From Escherichia phage Bp4: DNA of 64,000 nt. Shown in pieces: positions 33,901-43,586 of the stretch. The stretch lies in sequence record NC_024142.2. One strand, 5' to 3'. Under the pieces are notes generated by a model. It was not told the DNA's origin, searched no databases, and was given only the letters and a program-made list of their open reading frames with translations. The position numbers and the translations under genes were made by a program. Within the stretch, counting starts at the first letter, position 1. Every line of letters begins with the position of its first letter.

Positions 33901-35668
33901 TGCAACCTTGAACCAGTACAAAGGATACATCCCAACTGAGAACAAACAGGGTGTTAACCTGATTGTTGCTGAAGATAATCAGTTTGCTGATTTGATTGAG
34001 AAATCCTATGTACGTCTTGGTACTTATCAGGGTAGCTCTGCTAACCGGGGTCCAGCACGTAGTTACTACTTTGCACCGGTACAGGCACAGGCTCCGTTCT
34101 CACAAGGTATCCTACAGAACGTTCGAAATACTGCTGGTGGTGTAGACCTTGGTACAGGCTTTACGATGGGAACCATGGTAGCTGGTCGTATTACTGACAA
34201 GCCTTCCGTAGACCGTATCACTAAAGCACTGGCTCGTGGTGAACGTGGCAATGAACCACTGCTGCCTGTATATGATGCTAATGGTAATGTAGTTGCTTAT
34301 GAGCAATCTATTGACCCTAACATGCTGAAGCACATTGAGGGTGAGAATCATCTTGCTCGTGCAATCGGTGTATGGCGTGGTCGTCAGGTGGAAGAAGCTA
34401 AGGCTCAGCGTTTCAACGATATGCTAATTGAGAACCTGCATAGCATGTATGAGAACGACATTAAGATGTCTGCTTCTAATAAGTCCCAGTACGTTAACCT
34501 TCTTGGTTCTAAACTGGACCCAGTAACTGCCGATGCCCTTAAGCTGATGAACAGTGAAACTCGTCAGAAAGCAGAAAGTCTCTTTGGTCCAGGTGAATTG
34601 TGGGTGCGTCGTGACATGCTTAATGATGCTCTGGGTTATCGTGCAGCTTCTGTAGGAGATGCCTGGTCTGGTAATTCTCGTTGGTCACCAGAAACACTGG
34701 ATACCTTCAAGAAAGCTATGTTGGGTGTATTCGGCAACCGTGCCTATAAGTATGTAATGGGTGGTGAGAACCTGGTTCAGAACTTAGTTAAAGAAGCTAA
34801 GACCCTGATTGTAGTTAAGTCAGTAGTTGTACCTGCTGTTAACTTCCTGGCTAACCTTTACCAGATGGTTGCTCGTGGTGTACCTGTTAAGAACATTGCT
34901 AAGAGCATCCCACAAAAAACTGCTGAGATTAACCAGTATCTGAAATCTCGTCTGCGTCAGGTAGATGCAGAAGCAGAATTACGTGCAGCTACTAACCCGA
35001 ACCAGATTCGTAAACTCAAGGCTGAGATTCAGTCCATCTCTGATAGCCATAAACGTTTGAGTATCTGGCCTCTGTTGGAAGCTGGTGAGTTCTCTTCAAT
35101 TGCAGATGCTGGTATTGGCCGTGATGACATCCTGATTACTGAAGGTAAACTCCACGAATACATGGAAAAGCTGGCTGATAAGCTGCCTAAGTCTGTTCGT
35201 AACGCAGGTCGCTATGCACTTATCACTAAGGATACTGCTCTCTTCCAGGGTATTCAGAAGACGGTTGAGTACTCTGACTTTATTGCTAAAGCAATCATCT
35301 ATGATGAACTGACTCAGCGTAAAGGTAAGACTCGTGAAGAAGCACTGGGGCGTGTAACGGAAGAGTTCATTAACTATGACCGTCTGCCTGGTCGATTCCG
35401 TGGGTATATGGAAAGTGTTGGTTTGATGTGGTTCTACAACTTTAAGATTCGTTCTGCAAAAGTTGCAGTGTCCATGATTCGTAATAACCCAGTACATGCT
35501 GCTATGGCTATGTTGGCTCCAACCCCTACCATGTTTGGTAACGTTGGTCTTCCTATTCAGGACAACATCTTTAGTATTGCTGCACAAGGCAATCTTGGTT
35601 ACTCCTTTGGTTTCGGTCAAGGCTTACGTGCCCACAACCTGAACCCTTGGCTCAACCTTACTAACTAA
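24956..35668 (+). CDS. giant virion-encapsidated RNA polymerase (N4 vRNAP-like)
   Basis: Single uninterrupted ~3570-aa ORF in the virion module; size and position are diagnostic of N4-like phages; ATG at 24956 with RBS AGGAAAC. Confidence 0.8.
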   Translation: MSTFDRLAGFADSITNAKQVDVSTATSQKQAAQGQSPFQLTPENAYNLQTGRVGNLGIGAFEPGSLQADFTQASPLEIINKYGNEQGLQILNSRANAADVVRQDLSKQRTNAEAFGDTLSGVGLGVANTLGGIAALGTGLVNDNAGASIASGLDWLNKGVHNLQSDALNARRNVVQNQNVISAQENEKLYKQDIAKGESELVASLSRIGRDAYDSVANTLSNDMAATDGLAEGVGSFFTGGPLIRGVSALGKVMVGGDKAVKGITLAAELGYRPARIAQTAGRVAAPAIAIGGMEAGGAYQQTANEIMEMPFSELAAKSPVYQQHIKDGLSPEEARRQTASETGITAAGLTAPVAALTAPLVSKFELNPLKVGSLAGAGSNMLRETVEEGIQSGTSQFAQNKAIQGNVDAERDLLKGVGEQTGLGALYGFGSAGVAQAPGATVKAAGAAVGPAVRTTLAGASLAGKALAKVASPITNILVQRGEEVAKRNEQASPVSDATVNAAAQEATAQAEQAQATVQEAVDAMDISPEEKAAATQYAADLTQAMKFDPVELEQTNPAIREAVSGSTNRVEAIQKMADLVNTAEDPNVQMEAAIQMYDNIMSMDSFINRDPGALANLEQGSPAAAIVDQFSGLMANVQNTPKVLRAFRAIHSMIQEQAEAGKLKATEEANQAQANNIAMAADVSPEVLDADSVNMVLKHASEGKITLGNRQRAALQSAAALLQGAREFDAKAEELGLRPQDIVSKQIKTDESRSNEGQYSALQHAKRIRSAYNSGNFDLASAYLSDFMKFAQHMQNKVGALNEHLISGNADKNKSVHYQALSPSREWVRSRTGLGVNPYDTKSVKFAQQVALEAKTVADIANALATAYPELNVSHVKVTSLDSRLNKPAAQVVKEFRQGGLDATQSQQTNEPVNQVDETPALVQEDTTTVQPKDKLVVENKTAPTKETSPKAEEVSTTESERDAYVKENTISQEILNKNGDRRESPWLFADGTVVGSNGDHISLSDVFGHDGYRDMSLDTGAIRSTFYKGSEQPFVSLQLFDNQKLTAEQFNTVQSFVEANNALIQVGVDTSGRNTNNVEKEEVSLAQLKADYTVGGKPLSEMETVFPVYNNDKTPNQFIKSFSLPEEPKSRTIGSESPLTDVKKALSSAARFEAFTQKENNALTSDVIKRYQDLFEFGETLKTTLSDRLAKFLANKNVGKRFAEGTEANRWVGGKLLNIVEKDGDTFKFNDQLLETAVLAGLQWRLTATQNAAVKDMKDVAAITGVEASLLPEGILADFENAQTLVEATNSLAQKIESYWGLNRNPNAPLGYTKGIPMAMATEILSSLIEMGEVKESMLDVSEIDPESNKTVGLYTIEKLDDNDAINKFPTAIEETVLLEPVEKLYLGDDIPSVAQTQLRNPAVKNTPEQKAALKAEQATEFRVHMPMVNFYEALGRDNILELMGAGALNPELLNVNTAKSLEGKNLSVSMAYDSLFGVINQIKEQENGLDTPIHYGYNMTRVGRMQMLGKNNPQSSKLVREAILPTFSTIDLSNENSQTFSDFQLGLAQALGIKVHKMSREVMSDELTKALEGKLKPAVDMMVEFDKSGHLPADAVDILKTSLGNDKSFVALMALMEYARYLNSDDRANFNTPLYVEADGVTNGPINAMVLMTGGKFTSDWIKNTAKGGLFFGKAGKTMNEHHSHEDSVDLYEASTNSLQQALNELRNNYRNNVPVTNQMKHLQKLMDLFIKDFNLNEDGTLDLKRGIAKNPLTITIYGSGARGIAGKMVSAITDTIYERFSDVLQARAADPSISPAMAMFGKEAASEADAQAMLDTFLTSMEALTGNVPVMRKGELSIQQVDGALTGKLDPQKFTVSGNALKNLQENMLHLFVEPMRTGIRNTVGEGLMYSTENLQKATQIQSLVLQDMFQQRVQEKLAEKEKDPTWKKGDFLTQKELNEIQASLSPLAPMIETGSQTFYIAGSENTDVANQVLATNLDDRMRVPMSIYAPSQAGVAGIPFMTIGTGDGMMMQTLSTMKGAPKNTLKIFDGMNIGINDITDASRKANEAVYTSWQGNPIKNVYDSFAKFMKNVDFSKLSDETKQAIAKSALEYDQREGATDDLLRVGAEQIERNLRNIALGVDIRHKVMDQVQVTVDQMAAVGAPYVNNGKISLEGLTVDQQVAKLNELFDAELNKRRDAVRAAKAEPVKEVPAMEQVGRVLKSGVRLLSNAAITKLAKEMSPEQQAVLKEIQKSLAAKDYKVVYGTPSQLDAYAIEKNITRPAPEDIEAAEAGNAYGWTNFEDKTIYLVTPSLETLVHELVHASTFESVLAHYEGTPNEAVQNIEDLMNQFRALDVKNESPAVREAYADALNTINGHLSNGFIEPAMAKAAALNEYMAWGLTNRELISKQKKTTALKTMVQAVYEAIKRLVFGRKKAPANADDMFSGLLFNSAVVMRGQAPTAAVAKDTTLFHNKAYGDNTRLEELGKTFDKLITNYIGSEPVQQVIRKGKFSDAVVKATKVTRDVQAHGFTMNMQEQRLFTNIVAALATEAAINPAAMARAQEYYTHVTKNLTVEAFMADPDSTNPADRYYAQQKFDTIMGANNIEFDAQGRSSLLPTFVGLVMVSEEVRKVLADISVMKADKKSGNTVDAMLTNIGTAAMASLNARVAGDTKATNVQEGMDALAQTIMQTSLNAESFYDSVATPTGNAIDRANQYLVDSIDALSTRALEGAREVAANTKNPLVKGAAHAAQLVAAIATEKNGAIVAEGVMAAMNQGKVWQPFHDLVNDIIGRTKSNASVYDLIKAVRAQVQADRQQFREHLPTTIASKFSRKLTNDEWKAMHTGMGKTDLAVLRDTMSLDEIRDLLTDQKNVDREVNKLEADLQKQAGRNWPLINRKSKQLAQYMINGTVGNNLLRNATAISRLLGERKTTRSVVDVAQLDKLITLYALEAMSKTDREVLSSLAQTEVEGMDFATSYLVGQRKDEMAKAKSDSRATLNQYKGYIPTENKQGVNLIVAEDNQFADLIEKSYVRLGTYQGSSANRGPARSYYFAPVQAQAPFSQGILQNVRNTAGGVDLGTGFTMGTMVAGRITDKPSVDRITKALARGERGNEPLLPVYDANGNVVAYEQSIDPNMLKHIEGENHLARAIGVWRGRQVEEAKAQRFNDMLIENLHSMYENDIKMSASNKSQYVNLLGSKLDPVTADALKLMNSETRQKAESLFGPGELWVRRDMLNDALGYRAASVGDAWSGNSRWSPETLDTFKKAMLGVFGNRAYKYVMGGENLVQNLVKEAKTLIVVKSVVVPAVNFLANLYQMVARGVPVKNIAKSIPQKTAEINQYLKSRLRQVDAEAELRAATNPNQIRKLKAEIQSISDSHKRLSIWPLLEAGEFSSIADAGIGRDDILITEGKLHEYMEKLADKLPKSVRNAGRYALITKDTALFQGIQKTVEYSDFIAKAIIYDELTQRKGKTREEALGRVTEEFINYDRLPGRFRGYMESVGLMWFYNFKIRSAKVAVSMIRNNPVHAAMAMLAPTPTMFGNVGLPIQDNIFSIAAQGNLGYSFGFGQGLRAHNLNPWLNLTN

Positions 35669-35675
35669 ATGAAAA

Positions 35676-35705
35676 AGCCCCTCTAATGAGGGGCTTTTAT
35701 TTTTA
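35676..35705. terminator. bidirectional intrinsic terminator
   Basis: 8-bp stem AGCCCCTC/GAGGGGCT, loop TAAT, A-run upstream and TTTTATTTTT downstream; between convergent genes. Confidence 0.75.
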
Positions 35706-36194
35706 CTGAGCTAACACCCAATCTTCTGCTAATACATCTGATTGAGATGGAACCCATGGCATAAACTGGTTATCAACGGTTTTAATACCCAGCCAATCCC
35801 GTTTCTCACAAACGGTATTTTCATGTTTATCCATGGCCCAATTTTCACCAGATACTAAGGTGATATACATTCCTTTTCCGTTCCAACCTTTACGGGTCAT
35901 TCTAAAGCCTGATTTGAGAATCTCTACTGCATGACCAAAGGTACAACCTTTTTCTACGTCACGGTATGCAGCTTCGAATGTAGCTTTAGGTGACCAGCTA
36001 ATATAGCCACGGAATTGGGGATGGTTGGACTTAGAGTCTGGATACTCGACTAAGTAGCCTTCTTCTAGCGGGTCTTCATCTGCTGGTACATCCCAACCAC
36101 GAAGTTTGCAGTATGTTTCTTTGCTCATCGGGAAACCATTTACACACTTGGTTCCAATGTAGTTGGTGAAATGGACTTTAATTTCTTCTGACAT
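35703..36194 (-). CDS. DUF2829/Tad2-like domain protein (candidate anti-Thoeris sponge) with N-terminal extension
   Basis: C-terminal ~80 aa: AVEILKSGFRMTRKGWNGKGMYITL … PWVPSQSDVLAEDWVL matches my recollection of the DUF2829 motif; start taken at MSEEIKV with GAGG RBS. Confidence 0.45.
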   Translation of the reverse strand: MSEEIKVHFTNYIGTKCVNGFPMSKETYCKLRGWDVPADEDPLEEGYLVEYPDSKSNHPQFRGYISWSPKATFEAAYRDVEKGCTFGHAVEILKSGFRMTRKGWNGKGMYITLVSGENWAMDKHENTVCEKRDWLGIKTVDNQFMPWVPSQSDVLAEDWVLAQ

Positions 36195-36211
36195 AACTAC
36201 CTCAAATGAGA

Positions 36212-36240
36212 AAGCCCTCACTAGGAGGGCTTGTTTTGTT
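36212..36240. terminator. terminator-like hairpin between two minus-strand accessory genes
   Basis: AGCCCTC-ACTAG-GAGGGCT followed by TGTTTTGTTTT on plus and TTTCTCATTT on minus. Confidence 0.4.
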
Positions 36241-36312: not shown

Positions 36313-36693
36313 TCAAATTGTACAACCACCACCATCACAGGTATTGTTTTCTGCAAAGGAAGCCAAAGCTTTAGCAGTCTCTTCCTTCTCATGCAGTGCC
36401 TGACGTAGTAGGTAGCCCTCTAATTCCCAAATCTTATTGAATGCATTTTCATATGCATACTGGCGACCTAACTGCTCATCATAGATAGTTGGGTCTACGC
36501 AAGCAGATACACCTTCAACTTTAAAATTGTTTTCCAGAATGATAACACAATAGGTTACCAGACCCAGGTTAGCCAAATCATCTGCCGGGAGTGCAGAAGG
36601 ATCAACGAATGCAGATTTCACTGCATCAGCACCATTAAAATAGTAAACGCTCTTAATCTTAGCTTCGATTGCTTCTTTACTTACTGTTGCCAT
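36313..36693 (-). CDS. hypothetical accessory protein
   Basis: ORF with start at MATVSKEA; contains YYFNGADAV … ENAFNKIWELEGY; no confident family. Confidence 0.5.
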   Translation of the reverse strand: MATVSKEAIEAKIKSVYYFNGADAVKSAFVDPSALPADDLANLGLVTYCVIILENNFKVEGVSACVDPTIYDEQLGRQYAYENAFNKIWELEGYLLRQALHEKEETAKALASFAENNTCDGGGCTI

Positions 36694-36751: not shown

Positions 36752-36783
36752 TCAAATAAAAAAGTCCCTCCGAAGAGGGACTT
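36752..36783 (-). terminator. intrinsic terminator ending the tRNA-region transcript
   Basis: Minus strand stem GTCCCTC-TTCG-GAGGGAC followed by TTTTTTATTTG. Confidence 0.7.
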
Positions 36784-37009
36784 AGTAGCTTTAACGCAGC
36801 TAACGAGGCTAGGCCAGTTAACTATTACCACCGGTGCTTGTACCAGCAAACAGGATTGATAGTCCGATAATAGTTAACTGTAATTGAGCATTATAGTCTG
36901 CTCATACTCACACCGTTAGGTATGTTTTCAATAATTAGAGTGCCGGACTGTCTCACCGGCATTGTCTTTAGAGTGCAATGCAATCAGGACTATGTTCTCT
37001 ATTAATAAG

Positions 37010-37083
37010 TACCCACTACTGGATTTGAACCAGTGACCTTCCGATTATTAGTCGGTTGCTTTCCCCGTCTAAGCTAAGTGGGC
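37010..37083 (-). tRNA. tRNA, canonical cloverleaf; anticodon loop CUAAUAA, isotype uncertain
   Basis: Hand fold: acceptor GCCCACU/AGUGGGU, D-arm GCUU/AAGC, anticodon stem with one mismatch, T-arm ACUGG-UUCAAAU-CCAGU; no encoded CCA. Confidence 0.5.
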
Positions 37084-37719: not shown

Positions 37720-37795
37720 AATTAATTGCCAGGGATTCCACCTGGTCCATCTGTTTTTATAGTCACTCAGATATCGTCTGGACTGTAGGCATGGG

Positions 37796-37871
37796 TGGGA
37801 ATCGAACCCACAAACCATTCAGCACTGTAGCCTCACGCTCTACCTATTTGAGCTATCACACACCATTGATT
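37796..37871 (-). tRNA. tRNA-like element (canonical D-arm and T-arm; acceptor and anticodon stems not pairable)
   Basis: D-arm UAGCUCAAAUAGGUAGAGC and T-arm GUGGG-UUCGAUU-CCCAC present. Confidence 0.3.
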
Positions 37872-38156
37872 AACTCCCCGTTTCTAATACACGGACGAGG
37901 ACACTCCATGGTCGTTTGATAATCAGGACGACTCACTCCCGACTGACGCTTGGCTTATTAGGCTGCCATCAGAACAACATCATCGTTTGCATTTATGTTA
38001 TTGGTTCGTTTCTAAAAAACCGCATAATCGCTTACGAAAACTATCAAAGAGTACACTAAGCACAGGTAGCTACCCTGCCGTCTTCTCCACCTACACCGGC
38101 TACAGTGTAAACCTCCGCACGTTAGCTTAATGTACTCATTGATAGGATGTCAGTAG

Positions 38157-38226
38157 GTCGGGGGCTGGATTCGAACCAGCGAGAGAAGTAGCGACCATCT
38201 GCACATGCCTACGTGCTACCTCGACC
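38157..38226 (-). tRNA. tRNA-like element (acceptor with one mismatch, D-arm, T-arm; anticodon region 2-3 nt short)
   Basis: GUCGAGG/CCCCGAC, D-arm GCAC-GUAGGCAU-GUGC, T-arm GCUGG-UUCGAAU-CCAGC. Confidence 0.3.
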
Positions 38227-39045: not shown

Positions 39046-39486
39046 TTAACTACGTTTAAGGCCAGCGAACAGTGAAGGCTTAGTAGCAGGTTTCTCTGCT
39101 GGTTCTTCAGCCTTAGCCTCTTCCTGCACAACTTCTTCTTGTGCTTCTGGTTCAGATACTGCTTCTTCTTCAGGTTCCGGCGTAGAACTCTCGTTCTGAC
39201 CACCAGTAGAGGTCTGGGTTTCTTCTACCTTTACCTCTTCAACTACTTCTTCCGGCTCTGGTTCTACCGGACGATGTTTAGCTTCCTGTGGGTTCTTACG
39301 AGAACGACGAGTTTTCTTCTCTACTCCCACGGGTGGAGTATCTTCATGAACCTCTTCGTTGATACCAACGGAAGCTGTACCGTCTGCATTGATGACAATA
39401 TTGATGTCACCAGCAAGATTGATTTGATCATCGACATAAGCCTGTACAGCAGCTTCTACTTCGGACTGGTTCAAAATGATTTGCAT
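39046..39486 (-). CDS. acidic protein with Glu/Pro-rich tail
   Basis: C-terminal ~70 aa are E/P/V-rich (EPEPEEVVEEVKVEETQ…). Confidence 0.5.
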   Translation of the reverse strand: MQIILNQSEVEAAVQAYVDDQINLAGDINIVINADGTASVGINEEVHEDTPPVGVEKKTRRSRKNPQEAKHRPVEPEPEEVVEEVKVEETQTSTGGQNESSTPEPEEEAVSEPEAQEEVVQEEAKAEEPAEKPATKPSLFAGLKRS

Positions 39487-39487
39487 G

Positions 39488-40042
39488 TTACGCCTTTATT
39501 AAATTAAGGAGGTTTTGGAAAGCTGGGAGATTTACACCAGCATGGATTGCACCGATTGCATCAGCTAAGTGCTCATTCTTATTCAGAAGTTTGCCCTTCT
39601 TATCTGTGAGCCAGTTGGCTTCAGGATAGATGGCATGAGCAGCACGAATCATCGTGTCCTTAGATGCAGTTTTATCACCGACCAGTGCAAGTTTGTTTTC
39701 AATTGGGGATACTTCAAAGATTGGACAACCCAATGCACGAAATGCACCTATTAATCCTACGCATACGCCATAGGATTTCATACCGTTAGCAGACTGAGAG
39801 CCTACTGGTACTTCTACGAATACTGCTTTAGCAGACCGTAACCATTCCTCACAACCAAGAAACAAATCGTGAGCGGCTTGTATATCTTTGGAGTTGGTTC
39901 GAACTTGTTTGTTGTGGTCAACTTCAGTTTGAACCAGTTTAAGTTCGACCTGCTCGAAGACGCCGGACTCAATGTCCAGCATCCCACGAGCTAAACCCCA
40001 ATTGCGGAGACTAATGTCTGCACCGACAATTGGGATTTTCAT
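39488..40042 (-). CDS. RuvC-like Holliday junction resolvase
   Basis: N-terminal IVGADISLRNWGLA, FVEVP, C-terminal HLADAIGAIHAG, paralleling RuvC catalytic motifs. Confidence 0.7.
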   Translation of the reverse strand: MKIPIVGADISLRNWGLARGMLDIESGVFEQVELKLVQTEVDHNKQVRTNSKDIQAAHDLFLGCEEWLRSAKAVFVEVPVGSQSANGMKSYGVCVGLIGAFRALGCPIFEVSPIENKLALVGDKTASKDTMIRAAHAIYPEANWLTDKKGKLLNKNEHLADAIGAIHAGVNLPAFQNLLNLIKA

Positions 40043-41693: not shown

Positions 41694-43586
41694 TTATTTG
41701 CCAGCGAAGCGTTTAGCCACGGTGACCATTACGGTTGCATTCAATTCATCATCTGGTAATGGATTAGCCAGTTTCTTATTGAATGAGTGGACGGCTTGCT
41801 GTACTTGGGCAAAATCCCAACCACTGTCAACCAATGCCAGTGCGTACTTAATCATTTGATTATTACGATTACCGGTAGCAATACGACTAGCGAACCAACG
41901 CTCCAGATTATCCAACGACTGTACTTCCTTCATCTGGTTCTGGAACTGCTCGTTCTTACTAGTACGAGGAATAAAGTCACGCACGTCCAACAGATTTGCT
42001 TCAAGATTGTAATGATAGGAACCAGTCTCACAGGACATCCATTTCTTGGCTCGCTGGTTAGCAGATTCATCCGTTTCGAACGGTAGCCAAGACATAACGT
42101 TATTCATAAACTCTTTGTATTCCTCAGTGTCGAGGTGTAACTCATAGTTCATTGGAATAATCAGTCGGAAGCGGTTCTCTTCATCAGAATGACGTTTAGT
42201 GGTATAGGTCATGAACTTATATTCCTTCATCAGTTCATGGCACGTATGCAGTGGTACTCCACCATCACAGTCAATAACAATCATGTTAAATCCTGGAATA
42301 ACGTTCTCTTCAGAACGATGTCCATTCTTCATGTGATGGTTTACCCAGTGCATACCGGGAGCTTGGGTTAATACATGCAACTGGTCGAACGGTACACGTT
42401 CACCAATGTAGTCATAAGCAAAGCTATCACTATATGCCACTATCATCTCATTGATGTCAGTTTCTTTCAGAGTCTCACCACGGAAGAACTCAATACCTTC
42501 ATTAAAAGTCTTCTTAATGATGATGTGCTGTTTGTAGCCCCATGCTGTAGCAAGAGTCATCATCTCATTACGAGCTGCATTGCCACTCTTATAGAATGGC
42601 AATGACTCCACCAAGTCAGCATGAGTTACTTCTTTACCTACAGAAGCAATGTATTTAGCCAGCTTCACATAAGCCTTCTCACGATTGAGGATTGTCTGGA
42701 ATGCTGCTCCAGATTCTTCTACAAGCAGAATTGCTTGTTTAAGGTGAGTCATCTCAATGAATGAACTCTGGTCAACAAACGCCAGTGCTCCTGCCAGTTT
42801 AAGTGCTTTGAAATAACGGTGGGAAATTTCAGCTTTACGAATTTCTTCGTGGTCAGCCATAGCTTCTGCTTGTTTCTCACAATCAATTTTGTAAGCAATC
42901 AGAGCAATACCCACTGCATCTTCCACAACCATCTTAAAACCAAACAGGTTTGGATCAGCCAGACTATGGAAATGGTTAGCCCACTTACCAAGAGTCTGTA
43001 CGTTATCTTGTTTAATCAAGTTACGGTAGATTTCTTCCGGGGTTAGTGTTGCATGTGCTCTTTTGTCTAAGTGACCAGTGGCAAACAGACAGCGACGTGC
43101 ATACCCTATATCAAGAAAGCCATAGAACTGGTCTTCAGTCTGACCACCATCCAGTAGCTTACTTGGTGTACCAAACAGCAGCAGGTTAGTTGGAGTTTTG
43201 CCATCCAATTCTTCACCACGAACGCTTTCAGCAGTATTCTTGGTTAGCTTCTGTTTTACTTTTCCCTGGTCATATAACTCCAGGAACAGGGTTAGTACAT
43301 CCATGTTAGCCAACAGGTTCGAACCAATTTCATCAATCTGAAGATTGATTGAACCACATCCAGCCATTAATAGTTTATGGCGTAGTTGTTTAACTGCTGG
43401 TGGAGTACCTGAGTCAAACGTAAACGGATATGCCCCTGCACGTTTATACTCTGCCTCAACTTTATCAAACTCTTCCTGCTGGTCAGTACCCTGCCGTGCA
43501 GAGCGTTCGTTAGCAATCTTCCATAGACGATCATTTGCAATGACGGGCATGGTGTCTTCCATAAAGCGTTTACGGAAGCCAGTCAT
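41694..43586 (-). CDS. primase-like replication protein (DxD motif)
   Basis: 630 aa, MIVIDCDGG resembles the hhhDhD primase motif; position in the replication module. Confidence 0.4.
   Translation of the reverse strand: MTGFRKRFMEDTMPVIANDRLWKIANERSARQGTDQQEEFDKVEAEYKRAGAYPFTFDSGTPPAVKQLRHKLLMAGCGSINLQIDEIGSNLLANMDVLTLFLELYDQGKVKQKLTKNTAESVRGEELDGKTPTNLLLFGTPSKLLDGGQTEDQFYGFLDIGYARRCLFATGHLDKRAHATLTPEEIYRNLIKQDNVQTLGKWANHFHSLADPNLFGFKMVVEDAVGIALIAYKIDCEKQAEAMADHEEIRKAEISHRYFKALKLAGALAFVDQSSFIEMTHLKQAILLVEESGAAFQTILNREKAYVKLAKYIASVGKEVTHADLVESLPFYKSGNAARNEMMTLATAWGYKQHIIIKKTFNEGIEFFRGETLKETDINEMIVAYSDSFAYDYIGERVPFDQLHVLTQAPGMHWVNHHMKNGHRSEENVIPGFNMIVIDCDGGVPLHTCHELMKEYKFMTYTTKRHSDEENRFRLIIPMNYELHLDTEEYKEFMNNVMSWLPFETDESANQRAKKWMSCETGSYHYNLEANLLDVRDFIPRTSKNEQFQNQMKEVQSLDNLERWFASRIATGNRNNQMIKYALALVDSGWDFAQVQQAVHSFNKKLANPLPDDELNATVMVTVAKRFAGK

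What the first reader, a model, noticed from the sequence alone, without database searches (positions are those of the whole stretch)
35703..36194. Candidate Thoeris anti-defence sponge: DUF2829/Tad2-like domain fused to a novel N-terminal extension
The C-terminal ~80 residues (AVEILKSGFRMTRKGWNGKGMYITL … PWVPSQSDVLAEDWVL) match my recollection of the DUF2829 signature, the family that includes Tad2, which sequesters Thoeris signalling molecules. The ~85-aa N-terminal part has no obvious counterpart. The gene sits in a two-gene islet bracketed by terminators between the virion module and the tRNA region, a typical accessory location.
Basis: partly seen in the sequence, partly recalled or inferred. 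Interest (0 to 1): 0.7.

Follow-up and report, generated by a model that had tools for sequence, protein, structure and literature searches.

The report
Two-module phage Tad2 immune-signal sponge
This N4-like coliphage gene (the N4 gp49 orthologue) is a real Tad2-type "sponge", a protein family shown to soak up bacterial alarm molecules; its N-terminal half is not unique but a widespread, uncharacterised domain that is mostly found fused to known sponge domains.

Summary

The window is phage PD38/ECBP1-like, and the gene is the orthologue of N4 gp49. It lies in the "anti-signalling hotspot" between primase and virion RNA polymerase described in a 2026 preprint. The upstream neighbour is an Acb4-family (PF13876) anti-CBASS sponge, the N4 gp48 orthologue.

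The "novel N-terminal extension" is not an orphan. It is a conserved ~70-aa domain with no Pfam, NCBIfam or PDB match, found in 2,642 protein clusters. It is homologous to the N-terminal domain of RyR Tad, a domain-swapped dimer of unknown function. Of 149 representatives, 50 also carry Tad2, 41 Sequestin, 13 Acb4 and 3 Acb2/Tad1 hairpin. It also occurs alone and inside three-domain chains.

Most likely the protein is a Tad2 sponge for TIR-derived ADPR signals, joined to a second module that may itself act against signalling. Function is untested. The Tad2 part is a member of a known family; the partner domain is the interesting lead.

The parts
35703..36194 (-). Gene for the 163-aa two-domain protein (N4 gp49 orthologue); stop codon TAA at 35703-35705
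   Evidence: 100% identical to phage PD38 and 89% to N4 gp49; phrog_872 full length, E 5.6e-67
36200..36203 (-). GAGG ribosome-binding site, 5 nt upstream of ATG 36194
   Evidence: read directly from the sequence
35961..36167 (-). N-terminal 'sponge-partner' domain (residues ~10-78), predicted topology beta-beta-alpha-beta-beta-alpha
35712..35942 (-). Tad2-like (PF11195/DUF2829) sponge domain, residues 85-161
35796..35852 (-). Hypervariable beta2-beta5 insertion of the Tad2 domain (residues 115-133). It corresponds to the element that forms the second ligand pocket in HgmTad2 and ModTad2.
   Evidence: Mean pairwise identity 0.32 against 0.73-0.78 for the flanking segments in 60 N4-like alleles, falling into at least 5 discrete sequence types. 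pLDDT dips to 68 here. Literature.
35673..35698 (.). Bidirectional terminator-like hairpin between this gene and the convergent vRNAP gene
36212..36232 (.). Hairpin between the Acb4-like gene and this gene; the T-tail on the minus strand is weak
36313..36693 (-). Upstream neighbour: Acb4-family (PF13876) protein, orthologue of N4 gp48. Likely start is ATG 36693 (126 aa).
   Evidence: PF13876 E 1.7e-25. 47% identity to N4 gp48, which itself hits PF13876 at E 8.8e-35. PF13876 = Acb4.
36762..36783 (-). Terminator-like hairpin closing the upstream tRNA block, ahead of the two-gene islet

Best explanation
The gene encodes a two-module anti-signalling protein of an N4-like coliphage.

The C-terminal module (residues 85-161) is a Tad2-family sponge. 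By analogy with solved Tad2 proteins it should form a homotetramer. Pockets between protomers would bind and sequester ADP-ribose-derived alarm molecules made by TIR proteins of Thoeris systems: 3'cADPR/gcADPR, and possibly His-ADPR or N7-cADPR. The Thoeris effector is then never switched on.

The N-terminal module (residues ~10-78) is a separate, widespread and very conserved domain that keeps company with sponge domains. It most likely forms a domain-swapped dimer, as its homologue does in RyR Tad. My favoured reading is that it is a second, autonomous anti-signalling module, binding or processing another small molecule, rather than a passive tag.

The gene works alongside the adjacent Acb4-family (anti-CBASS) gene in the hotspot between primase and virion RNA polymerase.

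Shown here: family membership, fold, conservation of pocket residues, domain distribution and genomic context. Inferred: oligomeric state, ligand identity, any activity of the N-terminal domain.
For: Tad2 domain:
- PF11195 at E 3.2e-23.
- phmmer against the PDB: ModTad2 9eib and Tad2 8v3e at E 7e-17, SPO1 Tad2 8sme at 3e-15, HgmTad2/AcrIIA7 8kbi at 2.6e-10.
- Residues that bind gcADPR in HgmTad2, which when mutated lose binding (W21/N22/G23, W87, S90, T92, D93), align with W104 N105 G106 W147 S150 S152 D153 here (alignments). W104, N105, G106, W147 and D153 are invariant in 57 homologues, S150 is >=90% conserved, and position 152 is S or T.

Context:
- On the minus strand the order is primase, Sak4-like, SSB, RuvC-like (41% identical to Ab09 Bes1), a 146-aa acidic protein, tRNAs, Acb4-like, this gene, then the convergent vRNAP.
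- This is the hotspot layout in which a 2026 preprint reports Tad2, Tad3, Acb4 and Sequestin in N4-like phages.

N-terminal domain:
- 2,642 clusters at E<=1e-3.
- Among the 149 best representatives, 50 also carry Tad2, 41 Sequestin, 13 Acb4 and 3 the Acb2/Tad1 hairpin.
- Verified examples: CP51 gp007 (domain + Acb4), Klebsiella phage pKP-BM327-1.1 (domain + Sequestin), CB1 gp68 (domain + RyR), and a 73-aa stand-alone copy two genes upstream of an Acb2-like gene.
- It also sits in or beside longer chains: Acb4-domain-Sequestin, domain-Sequestin-Tad2 and domain-Acb2/Tad1 hairpin-Sequestin.
- Its sequence is independent of its partner: mean identity 0.594 with the same partner against 0.596 with a different one. 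The nearest neighbour shares the partner in 46 of 94 cases, against 0.41 expected by chance.
- 31 positions are conserved at >=85%, many of them polar or aromatic: K16, R32, W34, E40, E50, Y51, N57, Y64, S66, W67, S68.
- Fusion to known sponges is the criterion by which Sequestin was discovered.
Against: - No binding or plaque data exist for this protein or for N4 gp49.
- The Tad2 family is functionally plastic. Different members inhibit CBASS, Pycsar and Thoeris types I, II and IV, so 'anti-Thoeris' is only the most likely target.
- The only experiment on a homologue of the N-terminal domain, CB1 gp68 residues 1-86, showed no activity against type I Thoeris. The C-terminal domain alone was sufficient.
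- In that crystal structure the domain's visible role is dimerisation.
- The conserved core is rich in acidic residues, whereas known sponge pockets are positively charged.
- Oligomeric state could not be modelled here.
Confidence: 0.72

Rival explanations
1. The N-terminal domain is only a dimerisation or stabilising scaffold. It raises the avidity, solubility or oligomeric order of whichever sponge it is fused to, and binds no ligand of its own.
For: In the RyR Tad crystal the homologous domain forms a domain-swapped dimer. [quoted passage not shown] In most of the proteins sampled it accompanies a sponge domain.
Against: Tad2, Acb4, Sequestin and Acb2 all oligomerise without it. [quoted passage not shown] Invariant polar and aromatic residues are shared across phages of Proteobacteria, Bacteroidota and Clostridia, which is more conservation than an interface needs. 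It also occurs between two other sponge domains.
Confidence: 0.3
2. The Tad2 domain of this coliphage protein is tuned to a non-Thoeris signal, such as CBASS cyclic dinucleotides or Pycsar cCMP/cUMP. Thoeris would not be its real target in E. coli.
For: Tad2 homologues inhibit CBASS, Pycsar and three Thoeris types. The beta2-beta5 insertion, which forms the second pocket in HgmTad2 and ModTad2, is a hypervariable cassette in N4-like alleles. That pattern would be expected if specificity were being diversified.
Against: The insertion here is about 19 residues. That is at or below the length of the SPO1 Tad2 insertion (residues 36-59), which does not bind cyclic nucleotides, and well short of the 41 residues of HgmTad2. 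The canonical ADPR-signal pocket residues are intact. An Acb4-family gene next door already covers CBASS-type signals.
Confidence: 0.2
3. The N-terminal domain binds a conserved macromolecule (for example RNA polymerase, as Tudor-like CarD, Mfd-RID and UvrD C-terminal domains do, or nucleic acid). It would localise or regulate the sponge.
Confidence: 0.1
4. The protein is an anti-CRISPR of the AcrIIA7 type, as some phage records annotate it.
For: AcrIIA7 carries the same DUF2829 domain. Some records label genes at this locus 'anti-CRISPR protein'.
Against: Li et al. conclude that Tad2 does not antagonise SpyCas9 (section heading), and a later survey notes that the study could not confirm the reported anti-CRISPR activity. 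From general knowledge, E. coli has no type II-A CRISPR-Cas.
Confidence: 0.03

Closest known systems
Tad2 (Thoeris anti-defense 2; Pfam PF11195/DUF2829): SPO1 Tad2, ModTad2, HgmTad2/AcrIIA7
   Same: The C-terminal 77 residues match the family HMM, the solved structures and the fold. They keep the WNG and W-x-x-S-x-[ST]-D pocket motifs that bind gcADPR. The short beta2-beta5 insertion resembles SPO1 Tad2.
   Different: Characterised Tad2 proteins are ~90-104-aa single-domain proteins. This one is 163 aa with an additional folded N-terminal domain. The ligand is untested, and the insertion is one of several cassette alleles in N4-like phages.
RyR Tad (Pectobacterium phage vB_PatP_CB1 gp68; preprint 10.64898/2026.06.04.730250)
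   Same: The two proteins share a homologous N-terminal domain: hhalign probability 95.5%, E 1.5e-8, plus a Foldseek hit to a Yersinia phage RyR-domain protein at E 5.6e-5. Both have the plan 'N-domain + gcADPR-sponge domain', and both sit in the same hotspot of an N4-like phage.
   Different: The C-terminal sponge domain there is an all-helical RyR Repeat12-like fold, not Tad2. The two N-domains are only ~31% identical.
Fused double sponges (Acb4-Tad2 of Pasteurella phage Pm86, Acb4-Sequestin of Ab09 gp59, Tad2-Sequestin)
   Same: Each is a single polypeptide carrying two small modules in an anti-signalling locus. Fusion partners of sponges have themselves turned out to be sponges.
   Different: The N-terminal module here is none of the named families. 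It has no PF13876, PF21825 or PF24729 hit. hhalign probability is 0.2% to the Acb4 neighbour, 0.8% to the protein's own Tad2 domain and 0.1% to Bes2.
Escherichia phage N4 gp49 / PHROG phrog_872
   Same: It is the orthologue: 89% identity, the same position next to vRNAP and the same domain pair.
   Different: The main difference is in the hypervariable insertion. N4 gp49 has no published function that I could find.

Membership tests
Tad2 / PF11195 (DUF2829) | Significant match to the family HMM above Pfam's gathering score | tested here: met
   82.5 bits against a cut-off of 25, E 3.2e-23, profile positions 2-72 of 73
Tad2 / PF11195 (DUF2829) | Fold: N-terminal helix, then an antiparallel beta-sheet with a short helix between the last strands | tested here: met
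Tad2 / PF11195 (DUF2829) | Residues of the gcADPR/ADPR-signal pocket (HgmTad2 W21, N22, G23, W87, S90, T92, D93) | tested here: met
   They align to W104, N105, G106, W147, S150, S152 (a conservative T-to-S change) and D153. W104, N105, G106, W147 and D153 are invariant and S150 is >=90% conserved in 57 homologues.
Tad2 / PF11195 (DUF2829) | Homotetramer (dimer of dimers) with ligand pockets at protomer interfaces | not testable with these tools
   Only monomer prediction was available. It needs AF-multimer/AF3 or SEC-MALS.
Tad2 / PF11195 (DUF2829) | Binds and sequesters a TIR-derived signal and rescues phage from Thoeris | not testable with these tools
   Requires biochemistry and plaque assays
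Cyclic-dinucleotide-binding Tad2 subclass (HgmTad2 type) | Long (~41-residue) insertion between beta2 and beta5 that forms the second pocket | tested here: not met
   The insertion is ~19 residues (115-133), at or below the length in SPO1 Tad2 (residues 36-59). This lowers but does not exclude a second pocket.
RyR Tad N-terminal domain family (unnamed, no Pfam) | Sequence and fold homology to CB1 gp68 residues 1-86 | tested here: met
   hhalign probability 95.5%, E 1.5e-8, 63 columns. Foldseek BFVD hit to a Yersinia phage TG1 RyR-domain protein, E 5.6e-5, TM 0.69.
RyR Tad N-terminal domain family (unnamed, no Pfam) | Domain-swapped dimer (beta1 exchanged between protomers) | not testable with these tools
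   Reported for the CB1 gp68 crystal. Only a monomer model was made here.
Acb4 / PF13876 (considered for the N-terminal domain) | Match to PF13876 or to the Acb4 structure 9e4w | tested here: not met
Acb4 / PF13876 (for the neighbouring gene 36313-36693) | Match to PF13876 above the gathering score | tested here: met
   89.8 bits against 27, E 1.7e-25. Ligand binding is untested.
Sequestin (PF21825), Acb2/Tad1 hairpin (PF24729), Bes2 (considered for the N-terminal domain) | Sequence match to the family | tested here: not met
   No Pfam hits. Bes2 (Ab09 gp61) hhalign probability 0.1%.
Lockin and Acb5 (considered for the N-terminal domain) | Direct sequence or structure match to verified members | not tested
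   No reference sequences were available to me. Indirect evidence argues against both. Lockin was not found in complete INPHARED phage genomes, and the Acb5 homologues there were listed only in Streptomyces, Mycobacterium, Bacillus and Haloarcula phages. This domain occurs in 122 phage records, including N4. No strong PDB fold hit was found.

The most novel reading that the evidence does not exclude
The ~70-aa N-terminal domain founds a new family of anti-signalling modules. It would be a sponge or small enzyme for an immune signal or metabolite not covered by its fusion partner, or a device that protects sponge-carrying phages from sponge-sensing systems such as Panoptes. On this reading N4 gp49-type proteins are dual inhibitors. 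The ~50 sampled proteins in which the domain is joined to an unrecognised partner region would then mark further undiscovered sponge families.
Probability: 0.4. Interest if true: 0.75.

Novelty: new variant of a known kind. Interest (0 to 1): 0.5.

Why it matters
Nucleotide-signal sponges are one of the main known ways phages defeat CBASS, Thoeris and Pycsar immunity. New families have been found by looking at what known sponges are fused to.

The domain found here has no Pfam entry, so it was invisible to that Pfam-based search. Yet in this sample it is the shared partner of Tad2, Sequestin, Acb4, Acb2/Tad1-hairpin and RyR Tad domains, and it is more conserved than any of them.

If it is active, the classic model phage N4 would carry an uncharacterised immune-evasion module that can be tested directly with existing E. 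coli defence panels. The set of unknown partner regions would be a ready list of candidate new sponges. If it is only a dimeriser, it still explains a recurrent design rule for sponge proteins.

The cassette-like variation of the Tad2 insertion in closely related coliphages is a natural experiment on how sponge specificity evolves.

Tried and rejected
- **N-terminal domain against databases.** Pfam (24 members, E<=10), NCBIfam and a PDB sequence profile gave nothing credible.
- **Is it a degenerate copy of a nearby domain?** No: BLASTP against the neighbouring Acb4-like protein found nothing, and hhalign probability was 0.8% to the protein's own Tad2 domain and 0.2% to that neighbour.
- **Is it Bes2?** No.
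- **Unavailable resources.** The afdb50 Foldseek library was not available. The published Acb4 paper PMC12380128 was not held, so I used the preprint instead.
- **Stand-alone copy in context.** One metagenomic context (L006-L009) placed a stand-alone copy between a class II ribonucleotide reductase and glutaredoxin/PhoH genes. That is not an obvious anti-defence island and is uninformative.
- **GTG 36221 start.** Rejected in favour of ATG 36194.
- **Anti-CRISPR annotation.** Rejected on literature grounds.
- **Caveats on the census.** It covers the 149 best-scoring of 2,642 cluster representatives. Cluster representatives may favour longer proteins, so stand-alone copies are probably under-counted. 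The wider architecture count used HMMs I built myself, and its sample is biased towards Tad2 fusions.

Full report
**1. What is there**

The minus strand carries an ORF ending at 35703. The mechanical list begins it at GTG 36221. ATG 36194 is the better start. It is preceded by GAGG at 36200-36203, and the homologues begin MSEEIK or METK. The extra upstream codons also overlap a hairpin at 36212-36232.

The window is an N4-like coliphage. The 1.5 kb around the gene is 99.9% identical to Escherichia phage PD38 and 99.4% to ECBP1. The 3576-aa ORF that ends at 35668 on the plus strand is the virion RNA polymerase. The protein is 100% identical to a PD38 hypothetical protein and 89% identical to N4 gp49.

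**2. The C-terminal half is a Tad2 domain**

- Pfam PF11195 (Tad2-like, formerly DUF2829) matches residues 85-161 at E 3.2e-23. The score is 82.5 bits against a cut-off of 25.
- phmmer against PDB sequences finds ModTad2 (9eib) and a Tad2 (8v3e) at E 7e-17. SPO1 Tad2 (8sme) scores 3e-15 and HgmTad2/AcrIIA7 (8kbi) 2.6e-10.
- An AlphaFold2 model built from 57 homologues has mean pLDDT 88.

Li et al. showed that gcADPR is held in HgmTad2 by W21/N22/G23 and by W87, L88, S90, T92 and D93. The W21A/N22A and S90A/T92A/D93A mutants lose binding. In the alignments these positions correspond to W104 N105 G106 and W147 V148 S150 S152 D153. W104, N105, G106, W147 and D153 are invariant among 57 homologues, S150 is at least 90% conserved, and position 152 is S or T.

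The tested defining features of the family are therefore met. Tetramer formation and ligand binding could not be tested.

**3. Which signal?**

The Tad2 family is plastic. SPO1 Tad2 binds 3'cADPR, and ModTad2 binds His-ADPR and also cUMP. HgmTad2 binds cyclic dinucleotides in a second pocket, and some members block type IV Thoeris.

The second pocket is built from the insertion between beta2 and beta5. That insertion is 41 residues in HgmTad2 and 24 in SPO1 Tad2. Here it is about 19 residues (115-133) with lower model confidence, so a second pocket looks unlikely. This is an inference.

Among 60 alleles from N4-like enterobacterial phages, this insertion has a mean pairwise identity of 0.32. 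The rest of the protein scores 0.73-0.78. The insertion falls into at least five discrete sequence types. That is a cassette pattern in exactly the element that sets secondary specificity elsewhere.

I conclude that an ADPR-derived TIR signal is the most likely ligand. I cannot say which one.

**4. The N-terminal half is not an orphan**

Even so, a profile of this domain finds 5,915 proteins among the 8,000 candidates scored. It finds 2,642 clusters at 50% identity in an exhaustive HMM search. It occurs in 122 complete phage records from hosts as different as Escherichia, Vibrio, Pseudomonas, Rhizobium, Clostridium and Parabacteroides.

It is homologous to the N-terminal domain of CB1 gp68, named RyR Tad. 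hhalign gives probability 95.5% and E 1.5e-8, and Foldseek hits a Yersinia phage RyR-domain protein at E 5.6e-5. The 2026 preprint on RyR Tad makes four points:

- It shows the domain as a domain-swapped dimer in the crystal.
- It reports that residues 1-86 alone have no activity against type I Thoeris.
- It finds the C-terminal domain sufficient for that activity.

**5. The company the domain keeps**

Pfam equivalences from the literature are PF13876 = Acb4 and PF21825 = Sequestin. Among the 149 best cluster representatives, 50 also carry Tad2, 41 Sequestin, 13 Acb4 and 3 the Acb2/Tad1 hairpin. The only other Pfam partners are a WDGH domain in one protein and AP2 plus HNH, which sit together in P0248. 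About 40 have no recognised partner.

I verified individual cases:

| Protein | Architecture |
|---|---|
| Clostridium phage CP51 gp007 | domain + Acb4 |
| Klebsiella N4-like phage pKP-BM327-1.1 | domain + Sequestin |
| CB1 gp68 | domain + RyR |
| Pseudomonas phage HHBS14_1 | 73-aa stand-alone copy, two genes upstream of an Acb2-like gene |

Longer proteins string the modules together. Examples are Acb4-domain-Sequestin (P0308), domain-Sequestin-Tad2 (P0315) and domain-Acb2/Tad1 hairpin-Sequestin (P0352).

The domain's sequence does not track its partner. Mean identity is 0.594 with the same partner and 0.596 with a different one. The nearest neighbour shares the partner in 46 of 94 cases, against 0.41 expected by chance. 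Thirty-one positions are at least 85% conserved, many of them polar or aromatic.

It is not a diverged copy of the adjacent domains or of Bes2. The published descriptions of Lockin and Acb5 do not fit its distribution.

**6. Genomic context**

Reading the minus strand from right to left:

1. DNA primase (41694-43586).
2. A Sak4/RecA-like protein.
3. SSB.
4. A RuvC-like protein, 41% identical to Ab09 Bes1 (39488-40042).
5. A 146-aa acidic protein in the position of Bes2 (39046-39486).
6. Three tRNAs.
7. An Acb4-family gene (36313-36693, 47% identical to N4 gp48).
8. The gene under study.
9. A bidirectional terminator, then the convergent vRNAP.

This is the "anti-signalling hotspot" between primase-polymerase and vRNAP. 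The preprint describes it in N4-like phages and says it contains Tad2, Tad3, Acb4 and Sequestin.

**7. Mechanism and rivals**

Best supported (0.72): a Tad2 sponge for TIR-derived ADPR signals, joined to a second module.

For that second module I give about 0.4-0.45 to an autonomous small-molecule-binding or processing function. The arguments are its modular, bead-like distribution, the stand-alone copies, and polar conservation that does not depend on partner or host. About 0.3 goes to a pure dimerisation scaffold, supported by the crystal evidence and the negative result for gp68 residues 1-86. About 0.1 goes to binding of a macromolecule.

A non-Thoeris target for the Tad2 half (0.2) and an anti-CRISPR role (0.03) are less likely.

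**8. Novelty**

The Tad2 assignment is a new member of a known family, already hinted at by database annotation. The architecture, with an uncharacterised domain that is a shared partner of five sponge families, is a variant I could not find described beyond one sentence in the RyR Tad preprint. Hence "new variant of a known kind" and moderate interest.

Noticed in passing
window 36313-36693 (-): The upstream neighbour is an Acb4-family (PF13876) protein, the orthologue of N4 gp48. Its likely start is ATG 36693, not 36705. It shares with N4 gp48 an unexplained C-terminal tail C-[DE]-GGGC-x-I after the Acb4 core.
   Followed up: partly
window 39488-40042 (-): A 184-aa RuvC-like protein is 41% identical (E 6e-47) to Ab09 gp60 'Bes1'. 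A 2026 preprint reports that protein as helping phages evade CBASS and Thoeris by an unknown route.
   Followed up: partly
window 39046-39486 (-): A 146-aa acidic, low-complexity protein sits directly downstream of the Bes1-like gene. It has the same size and position as Ab09 gp61 'Bes2' and weak similarity to it (33% identity, E 1e-4, similar N-terminus and a C-terminal SLF). It is a possible Bes2 homologue.
   Followed up: partly
window 35796-35852 (-), residues 115-133: The Tad2 beta2-beta5 insertion comes in at least five discrete cassette types among closely related N4-like coliphages. Identity there is 0.32, against ~0.75 elsewhere.
   Followed up: yes
proteins P0230-P0378 (representatives carrying the N-terminal domain): About 50 of 152 proteins with the domain have a partner region with no Pfam hit and no match to my Tad2, Sequestin or Acb4 HMMs. 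By the guilt-by-fusion logic these are candidates for undiscovered sponge families.
   Followed up: no
P0248 (354 aa): In this protein an HNH/AP2 homing-endonuclease segment lies between the N-terminal domain and the Tad2 domain. This suggests a mobile element inserted in, or a gene call merged across, a sponge gene.
   Followed up: no
L001 (phage N4, EF056009) gp48 and gp49: The Pfam name 'Phage_gp49_66 (N4 Gp49 ...)' for PF13876 actually matches N4 gp48 in the GenBank numbering. N4 gp49 is the N-domain + Tad2 protein.
   Followed up: yes
window 37009-37083, 37785-37863, 38155-38226 (-): ARAGORN calls three tRNA genes (Ile-aat, Cys-aca, Ala-cgc) between the Bes2-like gene and the Acb4-like gene. 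The anticodons were not examined further.
   Followed up: no
L006-L009 (metagenomic contigs): A stand-alone 73-aa copy of the N-terminal domain lies between a class II ribonucleotide reductase and glutaredoxin/PhoH genes. This is a nucleotide-metabolism neighbourhood rather than an obvious anti-defence island.
   Followed up: no
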